Positions 6,458-21,197 of a stretch of DNA of 39,357 nucleotides are shown here, one piece after another; the stretch's first letter is position 1, and the number at the start of each line of letters is the position of its first letter. The DNA lies in contig JBBQDJ010000001.1 of the NCBI GenBank assembly GCA_038319595.1, positions 1-39,357 on the forward strand, given 5' to 3'. The notes under the pieces are model-generated. The model was not told the origin of the DNA, made no database searches, and saw only the letters and a program-made list of their open reading frames with translations. Made by a program: the position numbers and the translations under genes. Source of the stretch: Verrucomicrobiales bacterium (GTDB lineage Bacteria; Verrucomicrobiota; Verrucomicrobiia; Verrucomicrobiales; Akkermansiaceae).

Positions 6458-7804
6458 CTAGATCGATGGCGCGAGCGATGGTTCGTCGAGGAAAGCGGCG
6501 AGTTTCGCAAAATGGCCGTCCCACGTCGGCGGGCGGTAGTTTTTCATCCGCTCCATCTGGGCGAGGCGGGCGGGGGAGCCGTCGCGGGAGTATTCACGGA
6601 TGGCCTCCGACCAGCCGTTTCCATCCAAGGGCGAGAGCAAGGTTGGAATGCCCTGGCCAGCTTCTAAAAAGGGCGGGATGTTCGAGCCGATCACCGGCAC
6701 GCCCATGGCCAATGCCTCCACCAGCGGCATCCCCCAGCCTTCGACGAAGGAGGGGAACAACATGGCACGGGCGCGGTGGAGCAGCGGCCAGAGCTCGGCA
6801 TCAGGGACGTCGTTCATCTCGCGGACATGGCCACGGAGGGCCTCGCAGCGGTCGAGAATCCGAAACAGCGCTTCGTTTTCCCAGCCACGGCGGCCGATGA
6901 TGCACAACTCCGGGATGTCTCCGGGCGGGAGGGTTTCCGCAAACTCCCGCCAAAGGTGGACCACCAGCGCGTGATTCTTCCGCGGCTCGATGGTGCCGAG
7001 CATGACGAAATACGGCCGCGGCGAGGGACTTGGGGAAGTCTGGCCATTCGCGTGGGCCAGCACCCCGGGGTCCACGCCGATTGGAATCACCGCGACGGGC
7101 AACTCAGGCGCGCCCATGGCTTCCCGCCAGTGATCCATCCGCGCGGCGGTGTATTCCGAGTTCACCACCAAGTGGGTGGCGTAGCGGAACGCGTTGCGGA
7201 GCCGCAGCAGATGCTTCGGCCCCTCAAGCTCGCGGCAATATTCGGGAAAATCGCAGGGAATCGTGTCATGGATGAACATCACCCGTTTCAGATCCCGGTG
7301 GCGGGCGAGAGCTGACAGATAGGCGCTGCGCCCGAGCATCGAATGAGAGATCCCGAAAAAGCAGCCGGCTCGCGCTTGGGTGCGCCAACGTTGGTCCACC
7401 CGGTAGGCACCCTCACCCGCCGAAACGTCCAGCAGGTCGAGCGCCGCCAATCCGGAGTCGCAGAGTTCGTGCAGGCTGCGGGACGCTTGAAGGTTGGCGA
7501 GGCCACGGCGGCGCGCCTGCCATTTTCCAGCCATCCTTACGCGCCGGGCATTGTCGCACAGCGGCGCTAGCTGCCGCTCGGTGAACGGCTCCTGCTCACC
7601 CCGCCAGACGGCTTCGAGCTTGTCGGCGAACGCCTCTCCCAGCCGATGATCGATCACGGAAAATCCGGCCGCGCTGTTGACGATGTATTCGACGGATCCC
7701 ATCGTCCGCAGATGCTTGAGGTAAGCTAGGTCCACCCGGTCGATGCCGCTGGGTCCGGGAAAGGTCGCTCGCTTGCACAAGCGGGTGATGTCGAAAACTC
7801 TCAT
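6458..7804 (-). CDS. GT4 glycosyltransferase, capsule-associated WcbB-like type
   Basis: DITRL..SGIDRVDLAY N-terminus, IHDTIP, VVNSEYT, LGTIEPRKNH, FPSFVEGWGMPLVEAL (EX7E). Confidence 0.9.
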   Translation of the reverse strand: MRVFDITRLCKRATFPGPSGIDRVDLAYLKHLRTMGSVEYIVNSAAGFSVIDHRLGEAFADKLEAVWRGEQEPFTERQLAPLCDNARRVRMAGKWQARRRGLANLQASRSLHELCDSGLAALDLLDVSAGEGAYRVDQRWRTQARAGCFFGISHSMLGRSAYLSALARHRDLKRVMFIHDTIPCDFPEYCRELEGPKHLLRLRNAFRYATHLVVNSEYTAARMDHWREAMGAPELPVAVIPIGVDPGVLAHANGQTSPSPSPRPYFVMLGTIEPRKNHALVVHLWREFAETLPPGDIPELCIIGRRGWENEALFRILDRCEALRGHVREMNDVPDAELWPLLHRARAMLFPSFVEGWGMPLVEALAMGVPVIGSNIPPFLEAGQGIPTLLSPLDGNGWSEAIREYSRDGSPARLAQMERMKNYRPPTWDGHFAKLAAFLDEPSLAPSI

Positions 7805-8019
7805 GCGTCTCTTGGGAATGGAGTTCTAGGGCAGAAACACGGTGGGGTCCAAGCCGATACTCCAAGTTTCCATGTTTCACAAAATCAATTGAATGGTGAG
7901 GCAGCAACCGCCACCGGGCTTGACATGGCAGCGTCAAAATCATCTTCCTTTCTGCGGCGTCCAACGGTCAACCGGATACGCTTTCCTCGTTGAAACCTCG
8001 CATTCATCCCTGCCATCCC

Positions 8020-9087
8020 ATGACTCAAGACCGGTCCCTTTGCCGACTTCTCCCGTTGACCTGCCTTTCCCTGATCACTTCGTGCGCTTACATGTCCCAG
8101 ACCGGCCCGCAGAAATCGGCCATCGAGGGCGAGCAGGCGCAGTATGAATTGATCGAGGTGAAATCCCGGGCCGACCTGCCAGCGGCGGGCCGCACTTACG
8201 GCATGGGAGATATTCCTCCCCGGATCAAGGGTGGTGGCTATTCCGACAAGGTCCGGACCCGCGACAATCTCCACTTCGTCATCACCGACCTGACCGAGCA
8301 GAGTCCGTTCTTCACCCGCGGCGTGCCCTACGATTTCGGCCCGGTCGAGGTGCCGGAGGATGGGCTGGTGACCATCCCCTACGCGGGGGAAATCCAGGTG
8401 CTTAACCAAAGCCTGTCGGCCATTTCATCCAGCTTGAATGAGAAACTGAAGCCGATTTCCAACACTGCACAAGCCTCGGTGACCCGCTCCAACCGCATCT
8501 CGCGCACGGCCAACGTCATCGGAGAAGTGAAAAGCCCCGGTCCGATTCCGCTCGAAAAGAGCAACATCAGCTCGCTGGATCTGCTCGCCGCATCGGGTGG
8601 ACCGGTCGAGGCAGAGCACCTTTATAAATATACCCTGCGGCGAAATGCTCAGGACTACATATTCGACTATCAGGGATTCCGGCAACGGGCATTTCCCGTG
8701 GAAGAAGGTGACCTGCTGAGTGTCACCACGGACATGGCGAACCGTTTCTACGTGATGGGAGCCATCGTGAAACCCACCACGGTGCCGTTTCCGGTGCCAT
8801 CCCCCACCCTTGCAGACGCACTGGGTGCTGCGGCGGGATTCGACGTGCGCACCTCGGATCCATCCGGAGTGTTTGTTTTCAGAAAAGGAAATCCGGACCG
8901 GGTGTATACCGTGAATCTCAAGGATCCGGGAGCCATGTTCCTGACCCAGCGCTTTCCGATCCGGGGCGAGGATCTGGTCTATGTGACGGAGGCGCCGCTG
9001 GCCCGTTGGAACAGACTCATCGCCCAGCTCCTGCCGTTCTCGCAACTCTCGCAGGCGGCTTACAACATCGACCGCGTCTCCCAATAA
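8020..9087 (+). CDS. Outer-membrane capsule export lipoprotein (Wza/CtrA/BexD/WcbC-type OPX)
   Basis: Lipobox LITSC, PES motif VPEDGLVTIPYAGEIQV, SLBB repeats (VIGEVKSPG, YVMGAIVKP, TLADALGAAAG), DPSGVFVFR, DLVYVTEAP. ATG 8020 preferred to TTG 7990. Confidence 0.9.
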   Translation: MTQDRSLCRLLPLTCLSLITSCAYMSQTGPQKSAIEGEQAQYELIEVKSRADLPAAGRTYGMGDIPPRIKGGGYSDKVRTRDNLHFVITDLTEQSPFFTRGVPYDFGPVEVPEDGLVTIPYAGEIQVLNQSLSAISSSLNEKLKPISNTAQASVTRSNRISRTANVIGEVKSPGPIPLEKSNISSLDLLAASGGPVEAEHLYKYTLRRNAQDYIFDYQGFRQRAFPVEEGDLLSVTTDMANRFYVMGAIVKPTTVPFPVPSPTLADALGAAAGFDVRTSDPSGVFVFRKGNPDRVYTVNLKDPGAMFLTQRFPIRGEDLVYVTEAPLARWNRLIAQLLPFSQLSQAAYNIDRVSQ

Positions 9088-9103
9088 TCTGCATCTCAAT
9101 TTC

Positions 9104-9577
9104 TTGAAGATTCGCCTCCGCCAAGCCCTCGTTCCCTGCGTCCTGCTCTTCGGCTGCGCACCCATGGGCGCTCCTTACACAGGAGCGCCACCTTCCACCG
9201 TTTCCCGGAAAGTGGGAGTTTCGGCACCCGTTCCTGACGCGCCACAGCTGAAAAAACTGGCCAACGGCCACTACCGGGTCCGCAAACCCTGGACCGTGAA
9301 CCTTGGCGGCCGCCAATGGCAGGTTCCCGCCGGCTACTCCTCTAACGGCCTAACGGTGCCATCCTTCCTCAAAGGCTCCCTAGGCGATGGCGTGCAATAC
9401 AAGGAAACCTGGTCCGCGGTGTTTCATGACTGGCTCTTCACCCAGCCCGGCGTCACCCGGGCCCAAGCCGACCGGATGTTTTATGATCTGATGATCGCCT
9501 ACGGGGTTTCCGCGGAAAAGGCCCGGCTGATGTATAACACCGTCGCCGCTTATTCCCTCACTAAATCTAACCGGTAA
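9104..9577 (+). CDS. DUF1353-family lipoprotein
   Basis: Lipobox LLFGC; VPAGY..G..VP, AVFHDWLF, RAQADRMFYDLM..GV..ARLMY pattern; TTG start 16 nt after the export gene. Confidence 0.75.
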   Translation: MKIRLRQALVPCVLLFGCAPMGAPYTGAPPSTVSRKVGVSAPVPDAPQLKKLANGHYRVRKPWTVNLGGRQWQVPAGYSSNGLTVPSFLKGSLGDGVQYKETWSAVFHDWLFTQPGVTRAQADRMFYDLMIAYGVSAEKARLMYNTVAAYSLTKSNR

Positions 9578-9600
9578 TCGTTCCAACCGGAACCATCGTC

Positions 9601-10401
9601 ATGCCCGCCGCGCCTATTTCCATCCCGAAACACTCACCATGGGTGACCCAGCGACTCGTGATCGGCGCGCTTCTCAGGCGCGAGGTCTCCACCCGCTTCG
9701 GCGAATATCGGCTCGGGTTCTTCTGGATGCTTGTCGAACCCTTGCTCGGCGTGCTCACCGTCGGGGTGCTCATCGGTAGCCTCGCCCAACGCAGCGTGCC
9801 GGAAATCCCCTACCCGTTCTTTGTGCTCAACGGCTTTCTGCTGATGAAACTGCTCACCGGCCCGATGAACATGGGGATCAATGCGATCGGCTCGAACAAG
9901 GGGCTTCTGGTCTATCCGGCCGTCCGGCCGCTTGATACATTCATCGCCCGTTTCCTGTTCGAGTTGATGAGTCAGATGTTTTCCTATTCCCTGTTCTGCT
10001 TGCTGGGCATGTTCTTTGGGATTTTTGTCTCGCTGGCCAACCTACAGATCGTGCTGGCCTGTCATTTGCTCACTTGGTGCACCGGCTGCGGCCTGGGACT
10101 GATCTTCGGTGTCGCATCCGCTTATTACAATGAAGTGGACAAGCTGGTAATGATCATCCAACGCCCCCTACTTTTCATCTCAGCCGTGCTGTTCCCCTTA
10201 AGCGCGCTGCCGTTGAGCGCGCAAAATCGGCTGCTTTACAATCCACTGGTTCACACCATCGAACTGAGCCGCAAGGCGCTCTTTCCTTACTACAATGCGG
10301 GGGACGCGAACATGATCTATCCGGCCGTTTTCGCAGTCGTCGTCCTTGCCATCGGCCTCACCCTATTTTACGGGAACCGGAATTACCTGAGCCAGCGCTA
10401 G
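9601..10401 (+). CDS. kpsM: Capsule ABC transporter permease KpsM/Wzm
   Basis: VIGALLRREVSTRFG..LGFFWMLVEP, six hydrophobic segments, LYNPLVHTIELSR. Confidence 0.93.
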   Translation: MPAAPISIPKHSPWVTQRLVIGALLRREVSTRFGEYRLGFFWMLVEPLLGVLTVGVLIGSLAQRSVPEIPYPFFVLNGFLLMKLLTGPMNMGINAIGSNKGLLVYPAVRPLDTFIARFLFELMSQMFSYSLFCLLGMFFGIFVSLANLQIVLACHLLTWCTGCGLGLIFGVASAYYNEVDKLVMIIQRPLLFISAVLFPLSALPLSAQNRLLYNPLVHTIELSRKALFPYYNAGDANMIYPAVFAVVVLAIGLTLFYGNRNYLSQR

Positions 10402-10414
10402 ATCGTCCCGCCAC

Positions 10415-11227
10415 ATGATCGAAATCCGCAATCTCACGAAATACTACCCGGTCAAGGGTGGCTTGCGTTACGTTTTAAACAACGTTTCCTTAACGATCCC
10501 CAGCCGGACCAATCTCGCCATCCTCGGACCCAATGGCGCGGGAAAGTCGACGTTTCTGCGGATGATCGGCGGCGAGGAACCCGCGAACAGCGGCACCATC
10601 CTAACCGACCAGAATATCTCCTGGCCGCTTGGCCTGACTTCCGGATTCCAAGGCTCGCTAACAGGCCGCGAGAACGTCCTCTTCGTTTGCAGGATCAACG
10701 GCCTCAACTTCGACGAAACCCGCTATGTCATCAGCTTGGTCGTGGACTTCGCCGAAATCGGTGAGTATTTCGACATGCCAGTAGGCACCTATTCCTCGGG
10801 AATGAGGGGCCGTCTCAGCTTCGGATTGTCGATGGCGTTCGAGTTCGACGTCTATCTCATCGACGAACTCACCTCGGTGGGGGACACGATTTTCCGGGAG
10901 AAAGCGAAGGCAGCGTTCGAAAGCATCCGCAAGCACGCCTCATTGATTTTCGTTTCCCACAACATCAAGATGTTGAAGCAATCCTGCCAATCCGCCCTCT
11001 TCATGCGGAATGGAATGGCTGATTTCTATCCGAATATCGATGATGGCATCGAAGCCTACAACGAATACGTCAAGGAACACCGGAACAACTCGAACCCGAA
11101 AAACCGGGAGGGCAAAGACCGCACCAAATCACCTTCGGAAAAGTCCGCCAAAAAGGAACGGCGCAAAGCCCGCCGCCTCGAGAAGAAACTCAACAACCCC
11201 ACCGATCCATCCTCACCTCCAAATTGA
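10415..11227 (+). CDS. kpsT: Capsule ABC transporter ATP-binding protein KpsT/Wzt
   Basis: Walker A GPNGAGKST, ISWPLG..GFQGSLTGREN, YSSGMRGRL, Walker B YLIDE, VSHN. Confidence 0.94.
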   Translation: MIEIRNLTKYYPVKGGLRYVLNNVSLTIPSRTNLAILGPNGAGKSTFLRMIGGEEPANSGTILTDQNISWPLGLTSGFQGSLTGRENVLFVCRINGLNFDETRYVISLVVDFAEIGEYFDMPVGTYSSGMRGRLSFGLSMAFEFDVYLIDELTSVGDTIFREKAKAAFESIRKHASLIFVSHNIKMLKQSCQSALFMRNGMADFYPNIDDGIEAYNEYVKEHRNNSNPKNREGKDRTKSPSEKSAKKERRKARRLEKKLNNPTDPSSPPN

Positions 11228-12348
11228 TGAGCGCATCTTACATCCACACCGAACACAAAGCCGGATTTTCCCGGTTCATCGTCCGCACTCTCGGCGTGCT
11301 CTACGCCCTCGCGCTGGCCGCCGCCATTGCTTATCTTTGGCTCTCCACCCAGGACCGTTTCATCAGCACCGCGGAGTTCAAGATCTCGCAGCAAAACTCA
11401 TCGAGCGTGGACTCGGGCTTGCTTTCACTCGCTTTGCCGGGACTCTCCGATTCCGGGTCGGTGGACTCACAAATTGCCATCGGCTACATCAATTCGGCAG
11501 ACCTTCTGTTGGAGCTCGAAAAGCGTTTTGATCTCATCGCGCACTACACCTCGCCCAAGACCGATTACGTTTTCCGGATGAAAAAAGACGCCAATCTTGA
11601 AGAGCGTCTGGAATATTACCGAAACAGGATTATCGCCCATTTCGATTCCGAAACCGGAATGACGGTCATCACCGTGGACAGTTTCAGTCCGCAGTTATCC
11701 AAGGACATCGCGACCACCCTTTTGAAACAGGCGGAAAAATTCATCAATGTGATCAATCAACAGATCGCCGACCAGCAGCTCGGTTTTGTCCGCAGCGAGG
11801 TGGAGCACACCGCGAAACGGGTGGAGGAACTCAATAAGAAGCTGATTACCCTCCAGAATGAGAACAACCTCATCAACCCGGACGCAGTGATTTCCGCAAA
11901 CCTCCAAGCCGTCCAAGAACTCAGACTCGACCTGCTGCGCTCCGAAGCGGAATTGTCCTCCATCCTGCGTGACTCGCCCAACTCCCCGCGCATCGCCACC
12001 CTCCGTAGCCATATTCGGTCCGTCAACGAGTTGATCGACATCGAATCCGCCAAACTATCAGGTCCGGAAAAGGACCGGATGAACCAGATCCTGCTCCAGT
12101 TCAAGCAACTCACCCTTGAGATCGATTTTGCCACCCGCCTCCGCACCGGTGCCGAGACCATGCTCGAAAAGAACCGTGTCGAAGCCATCGCAAACTCCAA
12201 GTTCTTCACGGTCATCCAAGTTCCCTATCTGCCGGAGGATGTTGCGATCCCGCGCCGCACCTACTCCACGGCGGTCATTTTGGTGGTGGGGTTTCTCTTA
12301 TTCCTCATCCTCCGTGTCCTCGCCTTGTCGATTTTAGAGCGAGTCTGA
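11224..12348 (+). CDS. kpsE: Capsule export co-polymerase-like inner-membrane protein KpsE/WcbD
   Basis: N- and C-terminal TM helices around a coiled-coil periplasmic region, YINSADLL, Pro-rich motif before the last TM; directly after kpsT. Confidence 0.87.
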   Translation: MMSASYIHTEHKAGFSRFIVRTLGVLYALALAAAIAYLWLSTQDRFISTAEFKISQQNSSSVDSGLLSLALPGLSDSGSVDSQIAIGYINSADLLLELEKRFDLIAHYTSPKTDYVFRMKKDANLEERLEYYRNRIIAHFDSETGMTVITVDSFSPQLSKDIATTLLKQAEKFINVINQQIADQQLGFVRSEVEHTAKRVEELNKKLITLQNENNLINPDAVISANLQAVQELRLDLLRSEAELSSILRDSPNSPRIATLRSHIRSVNELIDIESAKLSGPEKDRMNQILLQFKQLTLEIDFATRLRTGAETMLEKNRVEAIANSKFFTVIQVPYLPEDVAIPRRTYSTAVILVVGFLLFLILRVLALSILERV

Positions 12349-12408
12349 CCTCTTGCCGCCCTCCAGCTTCCTGGGCGACTCCTCACCAGTTATCACACCG
12401 ACGAAACC

Positions 12409-13227
12409 ATGATTGATTTCCTATGCATCGGCGCACAGAAGGCGGGAACCACCTGGCTGATCGCGAATCTGAAGAAACATCCGCGGATCTGGACCCCGCC
12501 CTTCGTCAAGGAATTGCATTACTTTGATTCGGTCTATCTCGATTATGGAAAAGCCCGCGTCCTGAAAATCTATCAGAAACGCGGACGGACCATGTTAGAA
12601 AAGAATCCCGACCGGAAGGAATACTTCGAGCGCGTGCTTAACCCGGATTTCGCCTTCACCGATGACTGGTACCAGCACATTTTCTCGATCGCGCCGAAGA
12701 ATAAAATCAAAGGCGAATGCACGCCCCTCTATTCCGCCATCGGCGAGGCGGGTGCCGAGCATGTGAAGCGGCTCCTGCCCGACGTGAAGCTGATCTACAT
12801 CATCCGCGATCCGCTCGCGCGGGCGCTGTCGTCATTCCGAATGCAGCGGGACAATCGGGCGAAGCTCGAAAAGGACACGACCGGCGATCTGATGAGCCTG
12901 GTGACCAAGAAGCTGTTCAGGAAACGTGGGGACTACGCCACCAACATCCCGGCTTGGGAAAAGCACTTCGATCCACGGCAAATCCTCTACATCCCGTTCG
13001 GAGCGGTAAAAGCAAACCCCACCGGTGTGATGCGCGATGTGGAGGCGCATCTCGGGCTGCCGAAGTTCGATAAATACCCCAAGCTGACCCAAGCGGTCAA
13101 CCAGACGCGGAATGCGGGAACGACGATCGACGAGGCCATTGTCACGAAGATCAAGTCCATGGTCGAACCCCAGTATGCCTATCTAACCGATCGTTTCGGG
13201 CCTGATTTCCTGAAGCAAATCCTGTAA
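12409..13227 (+). CDS. PAPS-dependent sulfotransferase (resembles heparan-sulfate sulfotransferase domains)
   Basis: 5'-PSB loop CIGAQKAGTTWL, HPRI..KELHYFD, GECTPLY, 3'-PB motif IYIIRDPLARALS. Confidence 0.88.
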   Translation: MIDFLCIGAQKAGTTWLIANLKKHPRIWTPPFVKELHYFDSVYLDYGKARVLKIYQKRGRTMLEKNPDRKEYFERVLNPDFAFTDDWYQHIFSIAPKNKIKGECTPLYSAIGEAGAEHVKRLLPDVKLIYIIRDPLARALSSFRMQRDNRAKLEKDTTGDLMSLVTKKLFRKRGDYATNIPAWEKHFDPRQILYIPFGAVKANPTGVMRDVEAHLGLPKFDKYPKLTQAVNQTRNAGTTIDEAIVTKIKSMVEPQYAYLTDRFGPDFLKQIL

Positions 13228-13250
13228 TCCCCCCACAGAAGTTATTCCCG

Positions 13251-14003
13251 ATGTTCGCTAAAAAACAAAAAGGCAAAAAGGTCCAGAAAGTGAAGGACCA
13301 GCTCAAGAACGGAAGGTCCAAAGAACACGGATTCCTGCACATTCCGAAAACCGGAGGGTCCGGTGTGAATGCGTTCGGCCGGTCTCTTCACGAACGCGGT
13401 TACCACAGTCCGTGCGTGTTCAGCCATGGATGGAAAATGGAGGAGATCCTCGAGCACTTCCCGGACATCAGGATCAGCTTTGTTCTCCGTGATCCCCTGT
13501 CCCGCATGATCAGCGGATTCAACTCCCGGATTCGCCAAGGCCGCCCCACCTACCACAGCGTCTGGACACCTGCCGAGGCCGCCGCCTTCAACCTTTTCCC
13601 ATCCATCGGAAGACTGCTGGACGCCATCTTGGCCGATGACGAATTCAGCAAATCCGCCGTCGCCTACACGATGAAGGCCATTACCCACCTGCGTTGGAAC
13701 TATGCATTCTATTTCAAGAATCCGCAAACCATCCGAAGCCACCGTGGCAGCTTTGACCTGATCGGCTCGATGGATCACATGGACGATTTCATCAATGGCT
13801 ACACCAGGTTGGCCGGGGCTTCCGAATCTGTGGCCGCAGACCTTTACGAAAAACGTCATGAGGCCAAAGTCCGGTCGGAAGACGCGCTCGCACGATTTAC
13901 CGAAGAGGACATTTTGCGCATCAAGGACTCCATGGAAAAAGAGTACCGGATTTACGACGAACTTCTGTCCATCGCCAGCAAGTCCACCCCCCGGAAACCG
14001 TAG
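13251..14003 (+). CDS. Sulfotransferase family 2 type protein
   Basis: FLHIPKTGGSGV and FVLRDPLSRMISGF, FDLIGSMD. Confidence 0.82.
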   Translation: MFAKKQKGKKVQKVKDQLKNGRSKEHGFLHIPKTGGSGVNAFGRSLHERGYHSPCVFSHGWKMEEILEHFPDIRISFVLRDPLSRMISGFNSRIRQGRPTYHSVWTPAEAAAFNLFPSIGRLLDAILADDEFSKSAVAYTMKAITHLRWNYAFYFKNPQTIRSHRGSFDLIGSMDHMDDFINGYTRLAGASESVAADLYEKRHEAKVRSEDALARFTEEDILRIKDSMEKEYRIYDELLSIASKSTPRKP

Positions 14004-14098
14004 CCCTAACAAAAACCAGCTTTCTCGCACCGGCCATGACTGCCAACGCCGGTCTGGCCGGCCAAGCGCCGGCAAGGCGGCACCCATCATTTCTTCTC

Positions 14099-14950
14099 AT
14101 GAAAGACCCTGCGTCCTCGACCCTCCCTTCATTTCTCTGCATCGGTGCCCAAAAGGCGGCGACCTCGTGGCTATGGGTCATGCTCCGCCAGCACCCCGAG
14201 ATCTGGATGCCGCCTCTCAAGGAGATTCATTTTTTTGATCATCTTTACGTCCCCGAAAACCGTGCGTGGACCTTGAACCACATCAAGAAGGGGGTCAGCG
14301 ATGCTTTGAAATGGCATGTCGAACACGAGGCGATCCATCTGGATCACTTCAAGTATCTCGTGGACCTGGCCATGGAACGTCCTTTTACGGAAGATTGGTA
14401 CCGCTCCTGTTTCGACCGCCCGGGAGCCCATGGTAAGAAAACGGGGGATGTCACCCCGGAATACTGCACGATCCCACCGGAAGGCATCCGCCATGTGAAG
14501 GAATTGTTAGGTGAGGAGTTGAAGCTCATTTACATCATCCGCAATCCAGTGGATCGGGCGCTCTCCCAACTGAAGATGAATCTGACCCGGCGTGGCAAGG
14601 AATCTGAGGGGGTGGATTTCTGGATTGCTTCCGCCAAGGATCCTGTGATCGCGCAACGCGGTGATTACAAAACCTACATTCCGCAGTGGGAGGCGGCTTT
14701 TCCCAAGGCTAACATTCTGTATCTCCCGTACAAGCTGGTCAAAGCGGATCCGGCGAGATTCCTCAGCCAAATCGAAGCGCACCTTGGGATTTCCCGATTC
14801 CCCAGCTACTCGGGAATCGGCAACCGGGTCCACGAAACCCGTGAGGCGAAAGTTCCTTCCGCCGTCCTCCAGCATCTGGCGGAATCCCTGGCTCCGCAGT
14901 CCGGTTTCCTGAAAGAGCGCTTTGGAGAGGAATTCTATTCGCTCACCTGA
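14099..14950 (+). CDS. PAPS-dependent sulfotransferase, paralogue of 12409-13227
   Basis: CIGAQKAATSWL, HPEI..KEIHFFD, GDVTPEY, IYIIRNPVDRALS, RGDY. ATG 14099 preferred; 14036 possible. Confidence 0.88.
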   Translation: MKDPASSTLPSFLCIGAQKAATSWLWVMLRQHPEIWMPPLKEIHFFDHLYVPENRAWTLNHIKKGVSDALKWHVEHEAIHLDHFKYLVDLAMERPFTEDWYRSCFDRPGAHGKKTGDVTPEYCTIPPEGIRHVKELLGEELKLIYIIRNPVDRALSQLKMNLTRRGKESEGVDFWIASAKDPVIAQRGDYKTYIPQWEAAFPKANILYLPYKLVKADPARFLSQIEAHLGISRFPSYSGIGNRVHETREAKVPSAVLQHLAESLAPQSGFLKERFGEEFYSLT

Positions 14951-14997
14951 CGCTACGGTTGCATTCTCACCTCACCGAATCTCCCCACACGCACATC

Positions 14998-15915
14998 ATG
15001 TTCAACCGCCTGCTGCAATTTGGCAAATCGAAGAAGCTGGGGATTCTCGGTGACCGCCAGATTCATCTGCATCTGGGAGCCCACAAAACCGCCACCACCT
15101 ATCTCCAACAGATTTTGGCGACTCATAAAGAGGTCTTGCTGAAGAACGGTGTTCTTTACCTGCCTTTGGCCCAGACCCGAGTCAGCCTTTCCAAACAGAT
15201 CATCGCACTCTCCAAGGCGTCCCGGAACATCTCCAGCTTGAAATCCTGCCGCAAGACGATCCTTGATGAACTGAATAGCAAGGGCCTGGAAGGCTGCCAC
15301 ACCGTCCTGATCTCTGACGAAAATCTAATGGGAAGTCCCAGAAGATTCAAGGAGGGCACAGTTTACAACTCGATCCCGGACAATTGGAAACATGTCCACG
15401 AGGAACTTGGACCGAACATCAAGGTTTCGTTTTCGATCCGCGAATACCCCGGATTCCTTACCTCGATTTATTCGGAAATCCTCCGGAGGAATTACTATTT
15501 CCCGTTCGAAATAATCTCGGATTTTTACGGAAAATACCCCTCCTTATGGTCCGATGTTCACCAAGGCCTGAGCACTGCCTTCGGGGCGCAGAACGTCACG
15601 CTGTGGGATTTCAAGGATACGATAGCGCATCCCTACAAAGTGATTGCGATGCTGGCTGGCGTGAAGGTGCCGTTGAAAATTGTTTCAACTCCAGTTCGCG
15701 AGTCACTTTCGAAAAAGGCCATCGAGTTCATCCGGGATTTCCAGCAACTTCCGGGTAAATCCCTTCCGCCCAATCTGGTGACCGAAGTCGGCAAACGGCT
15801 CTATCCGTTAGCGGAGCATCCTGAGAAATTCGACCCGTTCGGAGCAGATGAACGGGCAGCGCTGCTCGCCCACTATCAGGCGGAGAAGGCGCAGCTGCCG
15901 GTCATGAAATTCTAA
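14998..15915 (+). CDS. Sulfotransferase-like P-loop protein
   Basis: IHLHLGAHKTATTYLQ, LISDENLMG, FSIREY..S.YSE; visibly more AT-rich than its neighbours; ATG 14998 preferred to TTG 14959. Confidence 0.72.
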   Translation: MFNRLLQFGKSKKLGILGDRQIHLHLGAHKTATTYLQQILATHKEVLLKNGVLYLPLAQTRVSLSKQIIALSKASRNISSLKSCRKTILDELNSKGLEGCHTVLISDENLMGSPRRFKEGTVYNSIPDNWKHVHEELGPNIKVSFSIREYPGFLTSIYSEILRRNYYFPFEIISDFYGKYPSLWSDVHQGLSTAFGAQNVTLWDFKDTIAHPYKVIAMLAGVKVPLKIVSTPVRESLSKKAIEFIRDFQQLPGKSLPPNLVTEVGKRLYPLAEHPEKFDPFGADERAALLAHYQAEKAQLPVMKF

Positions 15916-17453
15916 CGAATCGCCACCCCCGACGACGGGTCGGCCAGCAGCGCCTCGAACATCGCTGGGATCCGGTCGGCCGGAACCTGCACCGTACGGG
16001 CGAGGATGCGGGGCGAGATCTCGAACAACGAGGCCTTCACCCGGGTGACAACATGCGCCATCGAATCCGGCGGGATCACCTGCACCGGCAGCAGCCGTTC
16101 CGCCTTGTCAAAAACCTCAAGATCCGGGCGGGATTCCAGCGGATGAATCACCATCACCGGAATCATCGACGCCGGTGTCGCATCGACCAGGTAACGGCAG
16201 AACTGCCTGGGAAATCCGTCGCGGGTCTGCCAGCTGCGGACGGTCAGCCCCATGCGGGCCAGCTGCTCCTCGGGCATCCGGATGGCTTTCGGCGCGAAGG
16301 GCCGGCCCAGCCAGCACAGGCCGGAATGGGATTTCGTGATCCGCTCGAGTTCCTCGATGTGATCGGTGTTTTCGAGAAAAAGCATGACCACCGGACGGGT
16401 GATCGGGGAACGCACGACGGGCGGTTTTGGCAGGACTCCCTGATCATCGCCCTTGACGACAAGCACCTGCTGCTTGTCCTGATAGTAGCCGGGAACACCG
16501 GTGGTGAAGATGTGGTTCTCGTCGATCTTCGCTTGGATCAGGTCGCGGGTTTTCACCAGCGCCTTCAACTGAGGGATCGGCTTGGCGTGGCCGTCCTGAC
16601 GATAAAGGCTCTCCAGCAGAACGGATGCTTCCGGCGACACCTTGCGCACGAAGAAGTGTGGCAGCCGTCGGAGCAGCGACAGGTGATCGTTGTAGAAAAC
16701 GTAGGGCCGCCCGGCAGGTGTTAGGTGGTGGAACATCAACTGGAGATCCGCGATCTGCCACTTGGGGATGATTTTCGCGATGACCGTCTGGAAGTACGAT
16801 TCGTCTGGAATCCAGGTGGATCTGAAAAACTTCGGCACCTCGGGATGATCGCGAGTGAAATCCAGCACCTTCTTGCAGGTGGACCAGCGTAGAGTCCACC
16901 ACTGCGAACCCATGTGCGTTTTCAGGTCCATCGGCAGCCGCCGCCGGATCTTGAGTTTCCGCTGCCAGCGCACTAACCGATCAAAAGCTCTTCGGCTGGT
17001 TCTAAAGTTGAACGGATAGAAAAACCGCAGACGTTCGGAGCCGAGGCCGCCCTTGACCCAGGTTTTCTGGGTGATGTCGCAGCACTCGATGAAATCCCGG
17101 TTGGAATTGCGGCGGAGAAATTCCCTAAGCTCGGAAACCGGGCGGATCGGGAAATCCGCGCCGCTCATCAGGTGGATGTATTCCGGCTGCTTCGGGAGTT
17201 TCTCGAACTCGCGCAGGGCATGCAGCACGGCATCGACAAGGCTCCACTCACCCCAGACGCAGTGGACTTTTGAAATCACGGTGACCTGATCCGGCTTTTC
17301 CGCAGCGATCCGCGCCACGGCCTGCTGGTCCAGCTTGGTGGCGCTGGTGTCGAAATGGATGACCACACGGTTGCCATCGGTCGCCAACAGATCGACCAAG
17401 CGCCGGATGGCGTCCGGTTGGTGATGGGCGAGGATGATGAATCCGAGGTTCAT
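15912..17453 (-). CDS. GT14 (core-2/I-branching family) glycosyltransferase with a C-terminal extension
   Basis: GFIILAH, VIHFD, WGEWSLVDA, LMSGADFPIRP, GSQWWTL, IPDESYFQT, FFVRK; its stop overlaps the stop of the convergent sulfotransferase-like gene. Confidence 0.87.
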   Translation of the reverse strand: MNLGFIILAHHQPDAIRRLVDLLATDGNRVVIHFDTSATKLDQQAVARIAAEKPDQVTVISKVHCVWGEWSLVDAVLHALREFEKLPKQPEYIHLMSGADFPIRPVSELREFLRRNSNRDFIECCDITQKTWVKGGLGSERLRFFYPFNFRTSRRAFDRLVRWQRKLKIRRRLPMDLKTHMGSQWWTLRWSTCKKVLDFTRDHPEVPKFFRSTWIPDESYFQTVIAKIIPKWQIADLQLMFHHLTPAGRPYVFYNDHLSLLRRLPHFFVRKVSPEASVLLESLYRQDGHAKPIPQLKALVKTRDLIQAKIDENHIFTTGVPGYYQDKQQVLVVKGDDQGVLPKPPVVRSPITRPVVMLFLENTDHIEELERITKSHSGLCWLGRPFAPKAIRMPEEQLARMGLTVRSWQTRDGFPRQFCRYLVDATPASMIPVMVIHPLESRPDLEVFDKAERLLPVQVIPPDSMAHVVTRVKASLFEISPRILARTVQVPADRIPAMFEALLADPSSGVAIR

Positions 17454-17478
17454 GAATGCATTTGAAACGTCCGACTAC

Positions 17479-18519
17479 TTACTTCCAACAGCCGGACGTC
17501 ATGATGTTAGCCTTGATCAGTGACTGGGTTCCTTCATAGCGCGTGGATACCGGCGAGAAGAGGGAGTAATTTTCGGAGGTTTTCAGTTGATCGAGATATT
17601 TCTGATACTCCTTGGAGTCGTTGTAGTGATTCTTGTGATGGAGTGCGTGGTCGATTTTCTCTTGGAACGAGGAAACGAATTTGAAATGCAGCAAGGCTCC
17701 CGTCGGCTCATGGTATTTCTTGTGCGCGTGGTTAAGCATCGCCGGATAGGCGACATGGGTGCTCAGGTAATAGGCGAAGCGCGAATGCCATTTGATCAAC
17801 GGAGTTTTGTTCAGTGCGGGTGCCGCGCTGAAGTTCTCCGTGTTGAACGCGCGCAAGCGGGGGCCGCCGCGAACGAAGGTGTCCTCGTGTCCGCCCTTGA
17901 TCGAGTAGTAGCCGAATTGGTCGAAATACGGTGCGTATTCCAGTGGAGCCCTGCCCGGCGGAACATGCGCATCCATGATCGGCCCTTGCGGATACATATC
18001 CACGAGCTGGGTATAGAAGCTGAGCCGCTCGGAGTCGGTTAGAAACGCAAGCAGCTCGCCATACGAACGGCTTTCCATGAACGGATAGACGAAGAACTCG
18101 TCGAGATCGACGGTCAGCGTCCAGTGGCCAACGGCATGGGCACCGAGGAGCGCATTCATCCAGTCCACGCCGAAGCGGGTATCCGCGTAGGCCTCTTCGG
18201 AATGCCACAGGGAGGTGTCGCTCTCGTTGGCGAGGACGTCGGCCATCGGCGGATCCGACTGGTTGTCGACAAAGAGGAAATGGTCGATTCCGAGGTTCCG
18301 GTAATACTCAAGGAAATAGGGAATGCGGCTGTTCTCGTCCCGCCCCATGGTCATGAGCAGCTCGGCTCCCGGCTTGATGAACTGGGTCCGGTCATACACC
18401 GGGGTGAGATGGTTGAACGCCCGTGCCGCCCGCCGTTTCATTTCCTTCACCGCAGGATGCCAGAACAACCGTCGACGTCTCTCGTGGAGCGGGTCAAGAA
18501 TTCGGGTGACCGGTGACAT
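17479..18519 (-). CDS. GT-A glycosyltransferase (Glyco_tranf_2_4-like)
   Basis: RDENSRIPYFLEYYRNLGIDHFLFVDNQS, RFGVDWMN, WTLTVDLDEFFVYP, DMYP, GGPRLR, LNKTPL, LLHFKF. Confidence 0.85.
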   Translation of the reverse strand: MSPVTRILDPLHERRRRLFWHPAVKEMKRRAARAFNHLTPVYDRTQFIKPGAELLMTMGRDENSRIPYFLEYYRNLGIDHFLFVDNQSDPPMADVLANESDTSLWHSEEAYADTRFGVDWMNALLGAHAVGHWTLTVDLDEFFVYPFMESRSYGELLAFLTDSERLSFYTQLVDMYPQGPIMDAHVPPGRAPLEYAPYFDQFGYYSIKGGHEDTFVRGGPRLRAFNTENFSAAPALNKTPLIKWHSRFAYYLSTHVAYPAMLNHAHKKYHEPTGALLHFKFVSSFQEKIDHALHHKNHYNDSKEYQKYLDQLKTSENYSLFSPVSTRYEGTQSLIKANIMTSGCWK

Positions 18520-18537
18520 TGCTGCAAGGCATTGGTT

Positions 18538-19779
18538 CTATGAAGGACACGAGGGGGCGGAAAGGCTGGATGAATCCGGGGGTGAGTCGAGTCTTAATTC
18601 AGCTGCCACAGCCGCTAGATACTGCCTCTGCAGCTTGCCACATTGCGAATCCCACAGCGCGCTGCCACTGCAATCCCAAGCGATTTTTTCCAGATCCAAA
18701 AGCACGCGTTCCCAGATACAGGCTTCGATCTCGCCGACTGGAAATGTCGATTTCCCGAATTTCCCGATGTAGTGGATCTGACTGCGAACAACGACGACCC
18801 GGCCTTCCGGATCGAAGCCGGGCGTGCGGGCGGTATTCGATCCGAGCCGGTGAAGCACCTTGCTGTCCGGTGAGATCGCGCATTGGAATCCGGCAGTGAG
18901 CGCCCGCCGGACCAAGTCGGTTTCCTCGAGAAAATACTGATAGAACGGATCGAACCCGCCGATGACTTCTAGCATGGAGTTGCGGAATGCCATGTTGCAG
19001 CCGGTGGCGGTGAGGAATGCGCGCTGCGGACCGAGCTGTTGGATTTTTTCCCGGGCCGCTGAGGCATCCTCCAGCCAGAAGGCACGGCCGAGCGTGTCAG
19101 CTACGACATAGCGGTTCAGGTAGTGCTGTCCGTTGCCATCGAGCACGAAACCCGCCGAAATCCCGACCTTGGGATCCTCGTCCAGCGGCTGAAGTAACGC
19201 ATCAAGCCAGCCCGCCGCCGGCGAAGCGTCATCATCGATGAAAGCAACAAAACGTCCGGATGCCGCTTGCAGTCCGAGATTTCTCGAAATGGCGAGGTTT
19301 CGCTCGGGGCAATGGATCAACTGACACGGGACCGGTGAGCGGCTGACGATTTCCTCACTGAGGTCAGCGGTGGGGCCGAGCACGACGATGAGTTCGTCGG
19401 CGGAGTTCCAATCCGCCTTCAAGGAGGCAAGTGTTAGTTCCAGGTCCGCCGCACGGTCCACCGTATTGATGATGACGGAACAGCGCTTGGAGCCCGTCCG
19501 TAGTGCTATGAAATGGGGGGGGGTCGTGACCGGACTGATTCGGGACCAGGTCTCTAACGCGATCTTAAAATCACGTCCACAGTCGTGTTTCAGGATTTCC
19601 ACGATCCATTCGGCCTGCTGCGGGCTTTTGATACGCGCGATGAAGCGCTTGCGGCCGACACGAAGATATTTGGCAACTGCGGAAACCTCGCCCCATCGCC
19701 CGAGGAGTCGCCCGAGGCGACCACGCCGGGGAATTCTTAGAAGGTCATGGCCATCCACGGCGGCATTGCTACTGGTCAT
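18538..19779 (-). CDS. GT2 glycosyltransferase with a ~95-aa N-terminal extension
   Basis: SVIINTVDR, ELIVV, NLAISRNLGL, VAFIDDDA (DxD), GCNMAFR, GGFD..LEETDL. Confidence 0.88.
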   Translation of the reverse strand: MTSSNAAVDGHDLLRIPRRGRLGRLLGRWGEVSAVAKYLRVGRKRFIARIKSPQQAEWIVEILKHDCGRDFKIALETWSRISPVTTPPHFIALRTGSKRCSVIINTVDRAADLELTLASLKADWNSADELIVVLGPTADLSEEIVSRSPVPCQLIHCPERNLAISRNLGLQAASGRFVAFIDDDASPAAGWLDALLQPLDEDPKVGISAGFVLDGNGQHYLNRYVVADTLGRAFWLEDASAAREKIQQLGPQRAFLTATGCNMAFRNSMLEVIGGFDPFYQYFLEETDLVRRALTAGFQCAISPDSKVLHRLGSNTARTPGFDPEGRVVVVRSQIHYIGKFGKSTFPVGEIEACIWERVLLDLEKIAWDCSGSALWDSQCGKLQRQYLAAVAAELRLDSPPDSSSLSAPSCPS

Positions 19780-19823
19780 GAGCTTTCCGACACAAGGACG
19801 GAGTTGCCGGCAGGGCGGGCAGA

Positions 19824-21197
19824 TCAGGATTCCTTTTCGGGCTTGGAAGACGCCTTTGGATAGTCCGGGAAGAACTCCTTTCGGAACGGCTCAGGCCACT
19901 GAATCCTGCAGCGCCCTGCAACATCGAAACATCTCTGGGAGAGGGTTCCCCGGCCTTGGCTGGTCGCGAGAAGAAGATTGATGAAATGCCGCACCCGCGG
20001 GCCCTTGGGGCGCTCCGCCTGGGTCCAGAAGGCATCGAGGCCGTCCTGATAGGTCAACTCGACCAAGTCATATACGGCGATTCCCAGGGTGATCACCGGC
20101 ACATGGTGAACCAGCCCGGAAATACCCACCGAGCTGTTGATATTCACCACCCCGCGCGAGTGGCCGAGCAGCGTCGGCAATTGCACCCGGTCAACGTAGA
20201 AAATCCGGCCACCTCCGAGGCGATGGTCGAGGCCCGCGATGAGATCGGTGTAGTCCTTGTAGCCGCGGTCCATCGGGTGGACCTTGAAAACCAGCTTGGT
20301 ATCCGCCGGGGCGAATTTCTCAAACGAGCGCACCACTTTTTTAATGAACTGCTCGATCGATTGGAAATCCGAGCATTTCGTGATCTGAGTATCACTGTGA
20401 ACCTGCAGGGGCACGGCATAATACTGCCCGGACCATTCCCCGGCGAAGATCGGATCCATTTCGCAATCTCGGGTGCGTTCGAGGGAGCGCCAGAGGTGGA
20501 TCACGCCGTGTTTGAAATGGCTGCCGAGTTTCATTTCCCGCTGGTCCACGAAGTTTGGGAACAACGGTGAAGTGACCCGGCTGAGGAAAAAGTTCGTGCA
20601 GAAGGCCAGCAGCTTGGCGGTGGTGCTGACTTGGCAAAGGGCCGTTGGCGTCTCCACGTGATCCGGCGGCGGTGCTCCATGAAGCAGTTTCTTCCACGCC
20701 TTCGCCATCGTCGGCAGCGGCAACGTCTTCCGGCTGAAGACCGTCACGCAATTCGGGCGGATCAATCCCAGCTCGAAAACATGACACCCGAGATCCATTT
20801 CCCCGGCGAGGTTCCAAGCCACCTGATTGTAGGGCCGGTAGTGGTTGTAGAGGAAAAACGTGTCGTAGTTTTCGGTTTGGACCAGCTCGCGAAGCCAGGC
20901 CTCAAAGTCCGCCAGCCGCTTGCGATACAGGTGGGTCTGGATACCCCTGAATTTGTAAATCAGGTCAGGCGCGCAGAAAAACACCTTTCCCACTTCATGC
21001 CCGGCATCCTTGAGATCCAACGCCAGCCGCGACATGCCTGCTTCCCAGTCGCCCTGCACAATCAACACCTTCCGCTTGACGCTCTCCTTGGGGCCTCCCA
21101 CATGGTCCATCACATCGGCAGCAGGCAGTGTCAGGGAAGTTAATTCGCCAACGCTTGAGTCCAGACGGAAAGTTCCAACGGAAATTGAGGGCAACAT
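19824..21197 (-). CDS. kpsS: KpsS/LipB/WcbA-type beta-Kdo transferase (capsule lipid-anchor priming)
   Basis: VLIVQG, FELGLIRPNCVT, VPLQVHSDTQI, FKVHPMDRGYKDY, NINSSVGISGL, G.AVYD; the true start may be ATG 21110 (MDHVGG). Confidence 0.85.
   Translation of the reverse strand: MLPSISVGTFRLDSSVGELTSLTLPAADVMDHVGGPKESVKRKVLIVQGDWEAGMSRLALDLKDAGHEVGKVFFCAPDLIYKFRGIQTHLYRKRLADFEAWLRELVQTENYDTFFLYNHYRPYNQVAWNLAGEMDLGCHVFELGLIRPNCVTVFSRKTLPLPTMAKAWKKLLHGAPPPDHVETPTALCQVSTTAKLLAFCTNFFLSRVTSPLFPNFVDQREMKLGSHFKHGVIHLWRSLERTRDCEMDPIFAGEWSGQYYAVPLQVHSDTQITKCSDFQSIEQFIKKVVRSFEKFAPADTKLVFKVHPMDRGYKDYTDLIAGLDHRLGGGRIFYVDRVQLPTLLGHSRGVVNINSSVGISGLVHHVPVITLGIAVYDLVELTYQDGLDAFWTQAERPKGPRVRHFINLLLATSQGRGTLSQRCFDVAGRCRIQWPEPFRKEFFPDYPKASSKPEKES

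What the first reader, a model, noticed from the sequence alone, without database searches (positions are those of the whole stretch)
6458..21197. Kps-type capsule locus with four tandem sulfotransferases: candidate pathway for a multiply sulfated, GAG-like bacterial capsule
Seen: an export lipoprotein and kpsM-kpsT-kpsE run directly into four sulfotransferase-type genes, facing GT14, two GT2-type enzymes and kpsS, with a divergent GT4. Established: KpsMTE plus KpsS define lipid-anchored ABC-exported capsules. The classic GAG-mimic capsules of this class (E. coli K4/K5, Pasteurella) are unsulfated, and GT14 includes animal branching and xylosyl-transferases. Inference: this verrucomicrobium, from a phylum known for degrading sulfated glycans, makes its own sulfated and possibly branched surface polymer. 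The sugar composition cannot be read from sequence.
Basis: partly seen in the sequence, partly recalled or inferred. Interest (0 to 1): 0.85.

Follow-up and report, generated by a model that had tools for sequence, protein, structure and literature searches.

The report
Capsule locus with swappable sulfation cassette
This is a real capsule-export gene cluster in a Luteolibacter-like bacterium, with four intact sulfotransferase-fold genes that differ from relative to relative, so it likely makes a multiply sulfated sugar capsule; that is a known kind of product, and nothing here shows it resembles animal heparan or chondroitin.

Summary
The gene layout is real. An export lipoprotein, kpsM, kpsT and kpsE precede four sulfotransferase-fold genes, facing GT14, two GT2-type enzymes and kpsS. 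An unnoticed DUF1353 gene lies before kpsM. All four keep both PAPS-binding motifs. ST4 has no Pfam hit, but its model matches sulfotransferases (Z 13). kpsC and cysC/cysD-like genes lie on other contigs.

In the genus, 18 of 19 genomes with this GT14 carry kpsE. A sulfotransferase directly follows kpsE in 12 of those 18, against 0 of 27 GT14-negative Kps loci. The cassette varies (1-7 genes, mixed with pyruvyl- and methyltransferases) while the glycosyltransferases stay conserved. GT14 carries a C-terminal P-loop/sulfotransferase-like domain without its PAPS loop.

Best reading: a Kdo-lipid-anchored capsule, likely sulfated in the cytoplasm, with strain-specific decoration (0.7). Sulfated Kps capsules are chemically proven in Vibrio and Cobetia, and sulfated GAG-like exopolymers in the verrucomicrobium Pontiella, so the class is not new. 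'GAG-like' is unsupported: the locus has no GAG polymerase or uronic-acid gene. The scan noted Kps-plus-sulfotransferase loci before on other DNA. New variant of a known kind.

The parts
6458..7804 (-). GT4 glycosyltransferase, divergent from the export operon; candidate adaptor between the Kdo linker and the repeat unit (inferred)
   Evidence: PF00534 E 5e-18; homologs sit next to kpsC in five loci of relatives (L096, L106, L110, L135, L023)
7990..9087 (+). Outer-membrane polysaccharide export (OPX) lipoprotein, Wza/BexD/KpsD role
   Evidence: SLBB, Poly_export, Wza_C; PRK15078 E 2.5e-35, below cut-off
9104..9577 (+).
   Evidence: PF07087 E 1.8e-13; translation; present between kpsD and kpsM in 30 of 40 kpsE loci of the genus
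9601..10401 (+). KpsM ABC permease
   Evidence: PF01061; NF050053 E 6e-38
10415..11227 (+). KpsT ATPase, motifs intact, 270 aa with a lysine-rich tail and no C-terminal sugar-binding module
   Evidence: PF00005; GPNGAGKST, YSSGM, YLIDE; translation
11224..12348 (+). KpsE polysaccharide co-polymerase / periplasmic adaptor
   Evidence: TIGR01010 E 4e-66
12409..13227 (+). ST1, PF13469 sulfotransferase (PSB GAQKAGTT, ELHYFD, PB IIRDPLARALS)
   Evidence: best PDB hit heparan 3-O-sulfotransferase 3A1 E 3e-11, bacterial 3rnl E 7e-9
13251..14003 (+). ST2, PF03567-like sulfotransferase (PSB HIPKTGG, PB VLRDPLSRMIS)
   Evidence: PF03567 E 5e-4, below cut-off; motifs; 58% homolog passes cut-off; no PDB hit
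14036..14950 (+). ST3, PF13469 sulfotransferase, 37% identical to ST1; likely start at 14099 (inferred from homolog length)
14959..15915 (+). ST4, sulfotransferase-fold protein of a family without a Pfam model (PSB GAHKTATT, PB SIREYPGFLTS); recorded start 14998; overlaps the GT14 stop by 4 bp
   Evidence: 32 other relatives; K30, T31, R148, S156 invariant; model and fold search
15912..17453 (-). GT14 (Branch) glycosyltransferase, residues 4-226, plus a C-terminal (about 350-510) P-loop/sulfotransferase-like domain lacking the PAPS loop
   Evidence: PF02485 E 2e-18; profile hits XylT1 E 2e-15, C2GnT E 2e-8; C-terminus
17479..18519 (-). GT2-like (Glyco_tranf_2_4) glycosyltransferase, the most conserved partner of GT14
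   Evidence: PF13704 E 5e-28; 90-91% identity in the two closest relatives
18538..19779 (-). Single-domain GT2 glycosyltransferase
   Evidence: PF00535 E 1e-17; only PDB hit chondroitin synthase, E 8e-4 over 109 residues
19824..21197 (-). KpsS beta-Kdo transferase that primes the lipid anchor
   Evidence: PF05159 E 9e-45, NF050054 E 6e-63 below cut-off; QVHSDTQ and KVHP motifs (motif meaning recalled)

Best explanation
The locus encodes an ABC-transporter (Kps) capsule system whose polymer is likely decorated with several sulfate groups by four sulfotransferase-fold enzymes, held in a cassette that differs between strains while the glycosyltransferase module stays conserved. Steps: (1) KpsS, with KpsC from contig C94, would build the phosphatidylglycerol-oligo-Kdo primer (genes shown; chemistry from PMC12220298). 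(2) GT4 likely adapts the primer, and the two GT2-type enzymes with GT14 likely build a possibly branched repeat (genes and linkage shown; roles and sugars inferred). (3) ST1-ST4, none with a predicted membrane segment, would transfer sulfate from cytoplasmic PAPS before export (motifs and fold shown; substrate inferred). (4) KpsMT, KpsE and the OPX lipoprotein would export the chain (established for the family). (5) Exchange of the cassette likely yields strain-specific sulfation, pyruvylation or methylation patterns on a shared backbone (variation shown; chemical effect inferred). The GT14 C-terminal domain is predicted to be a non-catalytic sulfotransferase-derived module.
For: Complete Kps export set with intact ATPase motifs. 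kpsC in the same genome. APS kinase gene and a neighbouring cysD-like ORF on C480 (the cysD label is my reading of the sequence). All four STs keep the PSB lysine and the PB serine that define the family (PMC11625862). ST4 fold Z 13.1. STs follow kpsE at 60 bp with 8-60 bp gaps between ORFs. GT14 co-occurs with kpsE in 18 of 19 genomes against 29 of 153 without GT14. ST is the first gene after kpsE in 12 of 18 against 0 of 27; three or more STs within 9 kb in 10 of 18 against 0 of 27. 20 of 25 tested candidate STs of relatives hit a Pfam sulfotransferase family at E<=0.05. The closest kpsE relatives G125 and G132 keep GT2_4 at 90-91% and kpsS at 86-87% but share only ST4 (61%) and carry a pyruvyltransferase. 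GT14 is paired with a divergent PF03567 gene in 57 of 58 non-verrucomicrobial loci. Precedent: NMR-proven sulfated capsules from kps loci.
Against: No biochemistry and no expression data. kpsU/kdsB and cysN were not found in this 70%-complete assembly. No PAPS genes are in the locus, whereas the Vibrio and Cobetia clusters carry them. ST2 and ST4 are below Pfam cut-offs, and ST4's Foldseek TM-scores are only about 0.35. The GT14 label is clustered on the kpsE tree (8 changes against 14 in shuffles; quick tree, careful search unfinished), so the counts are not independent events. 13 of 27 GT14-negative Kps loci also hold 1-2 ST-like genes within 9 kb. My ST seeds came first from GT14-positive loci; seeds from the negative set were added. 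A second GT2-ST-ST cluster on C115 shows that the genome has STs outside the kps locus.
Confidence: 0.7

Rival explanations
1. The capsule is a true glycosaminoglycan mimic: a hexosamine-uronic acid backbone, N- and O-sulfated by heparan-type enzymes.
For: Best PDB hits of ST1 and ST3 are heparan 3-O- and N-sulfotransferases, and both keep the E-x-H-x-F-D segment that aligns to them. ST4's model ranks 3-OST5 and NDST1 at Z 12-13. The GT14 profile is closest to XylT1. The GT2's only PDB hit is chondroitin synthase. A UDP-glucose dehydrogenase family gene exists on C513. Pontiella makes N-sulfated exopolymers.
Against: All hits are remote (E 1e-11 or weaker for the STs; 11-17% identity in the fold matches), and a bacterial enzyme (3rnl) scores as well. 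Reference sets are biased to GAG enzymes. The GT2 match is one generic domain at E 8e-4. The locus has no two-domain polymerase, uronic-acid or epimerase gene. Solved sulfated Kps capsules are Rha-Glc and Rha-Man.
Confidence: 0.1
2. The export operon and the sulfotransferases serve different glycans: the STs sulfate LPS, a glycolipid or another exopolymer, and sit next to kpsE because surface-glycan genes accumulate together.
For: Rhizobial NodH and Mesorhizobium KpsS are described as glycolipid sulfotransferases. Relatives carry an ST class whose best PDB hit is titled 'LPS sulfotransferase NodH'. The 57 of 58 loci with the GT14-ST pair show no kpsM, kpsE or kpsS match within the fetched flanks. 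In G132 kpsE lies about 75 kb from GT14.
Against: An ST is the first gene after kpsE in 12 of 18 genomes, and in G132 the STs stay with kpsE when GT14 is far away. In the window no other polysaccharide pathway (wzx, wzy, O-ligase) is present.
Confidence: 0.12
3. Only some of the four are sulfotransferases; ST4 (and perhaps ST2) is a P-loop kinase, chain terminator or non-catalytic partner, so the capsule is singly or doubly sulfated.
For: ST4 lacks any Pfam sulfotransferase hit. An ST4-like domain is fused to an FkbM methyltransferase in G132, which recalls chain-capping enzymes (recalled). Sulfotransferases and NMP kinases share the fold.
Against: ST4 has the invariant PB-helix Arg and Ser as well as the PSB Lys, and its fold scores Z 13 for sulfotransferases against 7 for kinases.
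Confidence: 0.08

Closest known systems
Sulfated CPS locus of Cobetia marina KMM 1449 (PMC11766843)
   Same: kpsDMTE and kpsSC with a sulfotransferase; NMR shows a 2-O-sulfated rhamnose repeat.
   Different: Carries PAPS genes, sugar-nucleotide genes and wcbPQRT in the cluster; the passages read name no GT14 and no tandem ST array.
Sulfated CPS locus of Vibrio sp. KMM 8419 (PMC11641403)
   Same: kpsDME, kpsT, kpsS and three sulfotransferase genes; NMR shows 3-O-sulfated rhamnose; ST content differs between close strains.
   Different: No kpsC and WecA priming proposed; STs are scattered over an 80-gene locus; PAPS genes are inside it.
Pontiella sulfatireligans F21 cluster (Verrucomicrobiota; PMC7356697)
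   Same: Same phylum; PF13469 STs similar to GAG enzymes next to GT2/GT4 genes; sulfated exopolymer shown by a dye assay.
   Different: Released EPS of a Kiritimatiellae anaerobe; one ST in the cluster; no Kps export named in the passages read.
E. coli group 2/3 capsules, including the GAG mimics K4 and K5
   Same: KpsMTED export and the KpsS/KpsC Kdo-lipid primer.
   Different: There the serotype region varies in its glycosyltransferases (recalled); in this sub-type the GTs are conserved and the modifying enzymes vary. No KfoC/KfiAC-type polymerase pair here. PMC13171606 calls K5 kfiB a 'putative sulfotransferase' in one passage.
Synechan xss cluster of Synechocystis PCC 6803 (PMC8205485)
   Same: Two STs in a polysaccharide cluster with genetic support; the paper also notes ABC-type cyanobacterial clusters with STs.
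   Different: Wzx/Wzy-dependent released EPS, not a Kdo-anchored capsule.
Rhodobacteraceae GT14-DUF5928 gene with its divergent PF03567 sulfotransferase
   Same: GT14 37-41% identical over the catalytic domain and tied to an ST gene in 57 of 58 loci.
   Different: No kps genes detected in the flanks; one fixed partner, not a variable cassette; no paper found.

Membership tests
ABC-transporter-dependent (Kps, group 2/3) capsule | KpsM/KpsT transporter with intact ATPase | tested here: met
ABC-transporter-dependent (Kps, group 2/3) capsule | KpsE adaptor and OPX outer-membrane protein | tested here: met
   TIGR01010 E 4e-66; Wza/SLBB domains; both below NCBIfam cut-offs, as expected for a distant phylum
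ABC-transporter-dependent (Kps, group 2/3) capsule | KpsS and KpsC Kdo transferases | tested here: met
   kpsS in the window; 672-aa two-domain PF05159 protein on C94
ABC-transporter-dependent (Kps, group 2/3) capsule | CMP-Kdo supply (KpsU/KdsB) | tested here: inconclusive
   not found in the 70%-complete assembly
ABC-transporter-dependent (Kps, group 2/3) capsule | Polymer attached to lyso-PG-oligo-Kdo | not testable with these tools
   needs chemistry
PAPS-dependent sulfotransferase | PSB loop with Lys/Arg | tested here: met
   all four: GAQKAGTT, HIPKTGG, GAQKAATS, GAHKTATT; definition from PMC11625862
PAPS-dependent sulfotransferase | PB helix with Arg and Ser | tested here: met
   all four; invariant in the ST4 family
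PAPS-dependent sulfotransferase | Sulfotransferase fold | tested here: met
   ST1 and ST3 by sequence to PDB; ST4 by model; ST2 not folded, supported only by Pfam and homologs
PAPS-dependent sulfotransferase | Sulfate transfer to a polysaccharide | not testable with these tools
   needs assay
PAPS-dependent sulfotransferase (GT14 C-terminal domain) | PSB loop with Lys/Arg | tested here: not met
   the R-T-G-S loop of the Stf0/NodH-like profile aligns to FLENTDH in the window protein
GAG-mimic capsule (K4, K5, Pasteurella types) | Two-activity GAG polymerase (KfoC/PmHAS type, or KfiA plus KfiC); family definition recalled | tested here: not met
   single-domain GT2, a GT2_4, a GT14 and a GT4 only; chondroitin synthase hit E 8e-4 over one domain
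GAG-mimic capsule (K4, K5, Pasteurella types) | UDP-glucose dehydrogenase in the locus; family definition recalled | tested here: not met
   family matches only on C513 and C460
GAG-mimic capsule (K4, K5, Pasteurella types) | HexNAc-uronic acid disaccharide repeat | not testable with these tools
   needs NMR

The most novel reading that the evidence does not exclude
A bacterial 'sulfation code': a conserved GT14-branched, hexosamine-containing backbone is diversified by a swappable set of regioselective sulfotransferases, including soluble bacterial counterparts of heparan 3-O- or N-sulfotransferases, organised by a GT14 enzyme that reads the chain through a dead sulfotransferase domain. It would give a one-operon route to a multiply sulfated GAG-like polymer.
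Probability: 0.12. Interest if true: 0.8.

Novelty: new variant of a known kind. Interest (0 to 1): 0.48.

Why it matters
Few bacterial polysaccharide sulfotransferases have been characterised (PMC11625862; PMC11641403). This genus offers at least six sequence classes of short, soluble candidates in natural combinations on what looks like one backbone. That is a ready comparison set for assigning regioselectivity and for engineering sulfated polymers. It also suggests a way to diversify a capsule by swapping decorating enzymes instead of glycosyltransferases. ST4 marks a sulfotransferase family that Pfam misses. The plain claim that a bacterium makes a sulfated Kps capsule is not new.

Tried and rejected
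Promoter and terminator scans gave no more sites than shuffles (3 against 5.6; 19 against 18.5), so they say nothing on operon structure. No RNA holder was listed. The ESM Atlas gave no usable hit for the GT14 C-terminus and only generic GT2 clusters for GT2_4. PDB searches gave nothing for ST4 alone, GT2_4 or ST2, and only E 0.03 for the ST4 profile. The idea that the GT14 C-terminus and Rhodobacteraceae DUF5928 are one dead sulfotransferase domain was only partly upheld: the mixed profile matches the Stf0/NodH-like class at 93%, the verrucomicrobial rows alone at 61% (E 8e-5), the Rhodobacteraceae rows at 2%, a reversed control at 0.2%, and the two sets did not align to each other. Its fold search does not separate kinases from sulfotransferases (Z 8.4 against 8.0). 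fabH next to kpsS recurs in relatives, but it is a full-scoring FabH, so I did not count it as a capsule gene. The careful kpsE tree did not finish; the quick tree was used. A phylum-wide draw found this GT14 type in only 2 of 350 other genomes, both weak. Look-ups of earlier findings by place and by sequence returned nothing. No complex prediction was run, as no binding is claimed.


Full report
Observation. The window is contig C1 of a 3.73 Mb, 70%-complete assembly. One gene was missed: DUF1353 at 9104-9577, found at the same spot in 30 of 40 kpsE loci fetched from the genus. The nearest named relatives of GT14 and ST4 are Luteolibacter, Akkermansiaceae and Verrucomicrobiota MAGs (up to 84% and 62% identity), so the phylum guess holds (lineage).

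Are the four ORFs sulfotransferases? ST1 and ST3 pass PF13469 and PF00685 and are 37% identical to each other. ST2 scores just under PF03567; a 58%-identical homolog passes. ST4 has no Pfam support. Its model (pLDDT 90.5) aligns best to sulfotransferases: Z 13.1 to the bacterial 3rnl (rmsd 3.7, 198 residues) and 13.0 to human 3-OST5; the first 19 rows are all sulfotransferases and the first kinase scores 7.2. Foldseek agrees in rank but with TM near 0.35. The family definition in PMC11625862 (section 4 read) is a PSB lysine or arginine, a PB-helix serine and the sheet. All four have both motifs, and in ST4 K30, T31, R148 and S156 are invariant over 32 rows. None has a hydrophobic window above 1.6, against 2.4-3.0 for KpsM and KpsE, which fits cytoplasmic enzymes.

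Rest of the genome. A 672-aa KpsC is on C94. An APS kinase and an adjacent ORF that I read as cysD are on C480. A UDP-glucose dehydrogenase family gene is on C513. kdsB/kpsU and cysN were not found; the assembly is incomplete. C115 holds a separate GT2-ST-ST run.

Comparative evidence. Among 172 genomes of the genus (own included; others at least 80% complete), 19 have this GT14 and 47 have kpsE. 18 of the 19 GT14 genomes have kpsE, against 29 of 153 others. I fetched the DNA after kpsE for the 18 GT14-positive genomes and for 27 of the 29 negative ones (the two weak kpsE matches, G186 and G187, were left out). An ST-like gene is the first gene after kpsE in 12 of 18 against 0 of 27. Three or more lie within 9 kb in 10 of 18 against 0 of 27; 13 of the 27 hold one or two. 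Less than 9 kb was available for 7 loci of each set. Of 25 candidates checked in Pfam, 20 hit a sulfotransferase family at E<=0.05. Over all fetched capsule loci, 17 of the 18 other GT14 genomes have 1-7 ST-like genes; G021, whose GT14 is at a contig end, shows none. The window's set of four was seen in none of them. ST1 has a 60% match in G190, ST2 45-58% matches in three genomes, ST3 56-70% in five, ST4 48-61% in four. G125 and G132 form a well-supported kpsE clade with the window. They keep GT2_4 at 90-91% and kpsS at 86-87% (GT14 84% in G125) but carry PF03567, Stf0/NodH-like, pyruvyltransferase, a distant ST3 paralog (36-37%) and ST4. Other members add methyltransferases and GSCFA proteins. 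GT14-negative Kps loci carry other polymer genes such as glycerophosphotransferases, WsaF, WcbI and galactofuranose genes. The cassette is a little lower in G+C (0.52-0.56 against 0.58 for the genome). Caveat: the GT14 label needs 8 changes on a quick kpsE tree against 14 in shuffles, so relatives are not independent.

The GT14. Its profile is nearest human XylT1 (E 2e-15) and core-2 GlcNAc transferase (E 2e-8) among solved structures; this is family-level and gives no sugar. Pneumococcal WcrG adds a beta-1,6-Gal branch to a capsule (PMC7142292, passages); that WcrG is a GT14 is recalled and not in that paper. Residues about 350-510 fold with high confidence (pLDDT 93.4) into a P-loop kinase/sulfotransferase-type domain (Z 8.4 adenylate kinase, 8.0 sulfotransferase 4gox). 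Its profile matches the Stf0/NodH-like STs of the cassette at 93%, or 61% with verrucomicrobial rows alone and 0.2% for a reversed control. The R-T-G-S loop is absent. I read it as a likely dead sulfotransferase domain, moderately supported. Outside the phylum, 57 of 58 loci, mostly Rhodobacteraceae, pair the GT14 with a divergent PF03567 gene without kps genes in the flanks. The GT14-sulfotransferase link is thus wider than the Kps link.

Mechanism. Shown: gene content, intact motifs, linkage and cassette variation. From established knowledge: KpsS and KpsC build the PG-Kdo primer (PMC12220298, passages) and KpsMTE with the OPX protein export it. Inferred: GT4 as adaptor (it sits next to kpsC in five loci); GT2, GT2_4 and GT14 as backbone and branch builders; cytoplasmic sulfation by up to four enzymes; strain-specific decoration. 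Confidence 0.7. Rivals: true GAG mimic 0.1; STs acting on another glycan 0.12; some STs not catalysing sulfation 0.08.

Known systems. Vibrio sp. KMM 8419 has an NMR-solved sulfated Rha-Glc capsule with kpsDME, kpsT, kpsS and three ST genes (PMC11641403, passages). Cobetia marina KMM 1449 has a sulfated Rha-Man capsule with kpsETMD, kpsSC and an ST (PMC11766843, passages). Pontiella strains of Verrucomicrobiota make mostly N-sulfated exopolymers, with a putative ST-GT cluster in strain F21 (PMC7356697, passages). Synechan is a Wzy-type case, and that paper notes ABC-type cyanobacterial clusters with STs (PMC8205485, passages). So neither a sulfated Kps capsule nor a verrucomicrobial producer of sulfated glycans is new. 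GAG membership fails on the two locus features I could test. The review warns that Pfam seeds favour GAG enzymes, and the PDB hits have the same slant. Searches listed no paper on this locus, on Luteolibacter capsules or on the GT14-ST module; the library holds only open-licence PMC and bioRxiv texts, I read passages only, and no supplements were opened, where cluster maps of the Vibrio, Cobetia and cyanobacterial papers could show a GT14.

Earlier notes of this scan describe a Rhodobacteraceae sulfated-glycan operon and two cyanobacterial Kps-plus-ST loci. They are unchecked AI notes; they agree that the theme recurs.

Verdict. Observation confirmed, interpretation partly supported. New variant of a known kind: conserved GT14-based module, variable sulfotransferase cassette, one ST family outside Pfam, and a likely dead ST domain on GT14. 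Interest 0.48.

Noticed in passing
window 9104-9577 (+): DUF1353 gene with a lipobox-like LFGC lies between the OPX gene and kpsM in 30 of 40 kpsE loci of the genus, with or without GT14; a candidate accessory of capsule export.
   Followed up: partly
window 15912-16436 (-): GT14 C-terminal domain folds like a P-loop kinase/sulfotransferase and resembles Stf0/NodH-type STs without the PAPS loop.
   Followed up: yes
L036-L093, about 9000-11570: Rhodobacteraceae-type GT14-DUF5928 gene is divergently paired with a conserved PF03567 sulfotransferase in 57 of 58 loci; no paper found.
   Followed up: partly
L094:16010-17701 (G132): FkbM methyltransferase fused to an ST4-like domain, inserted between kpsS and GT2.
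   Followed up: no
L103:7000-9372 (G106); L143:6118-7791 (G135): Other fusions: sulfotransferase-GT2, and WcbI-sulfotransferase.
   Followed up: no
G000 contig C115 1598-3994 (L009): Second GT2-ST-ST cluster outside the kps locus.
   Followed up: partly
window 21455-22456 (-): fabH sits directly upstream of kpsS here and in several relatives; it may be chance synteny or a link to lipid-anchor supply.
   Followed up: no
L113-L150: GT14-negative Kps loci of the genus encode very different polymers (glycerophosphotransferase, WsaF, WcbI, galactofuranose, CST-I-like), a K-type-like diversity.
   Followed up: partly
L068: A gammaproteobacterial locus (Seongchinamella) has GT2_4-GT14 with several STs related to those of the cassette.
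   Followed up: no
window 22478-25735 (-): 1085-aa secreted-type protein with Chlam_PMP repeats and three HYDIN/ASH Ig-like domains.
   Followed up: no
G000 contig C480 about 215-720: A small ORF and a nucleotidyltransferase-looking ORF follow cysD where cysN would be expected (my reading of the translation).
   Followed up: no
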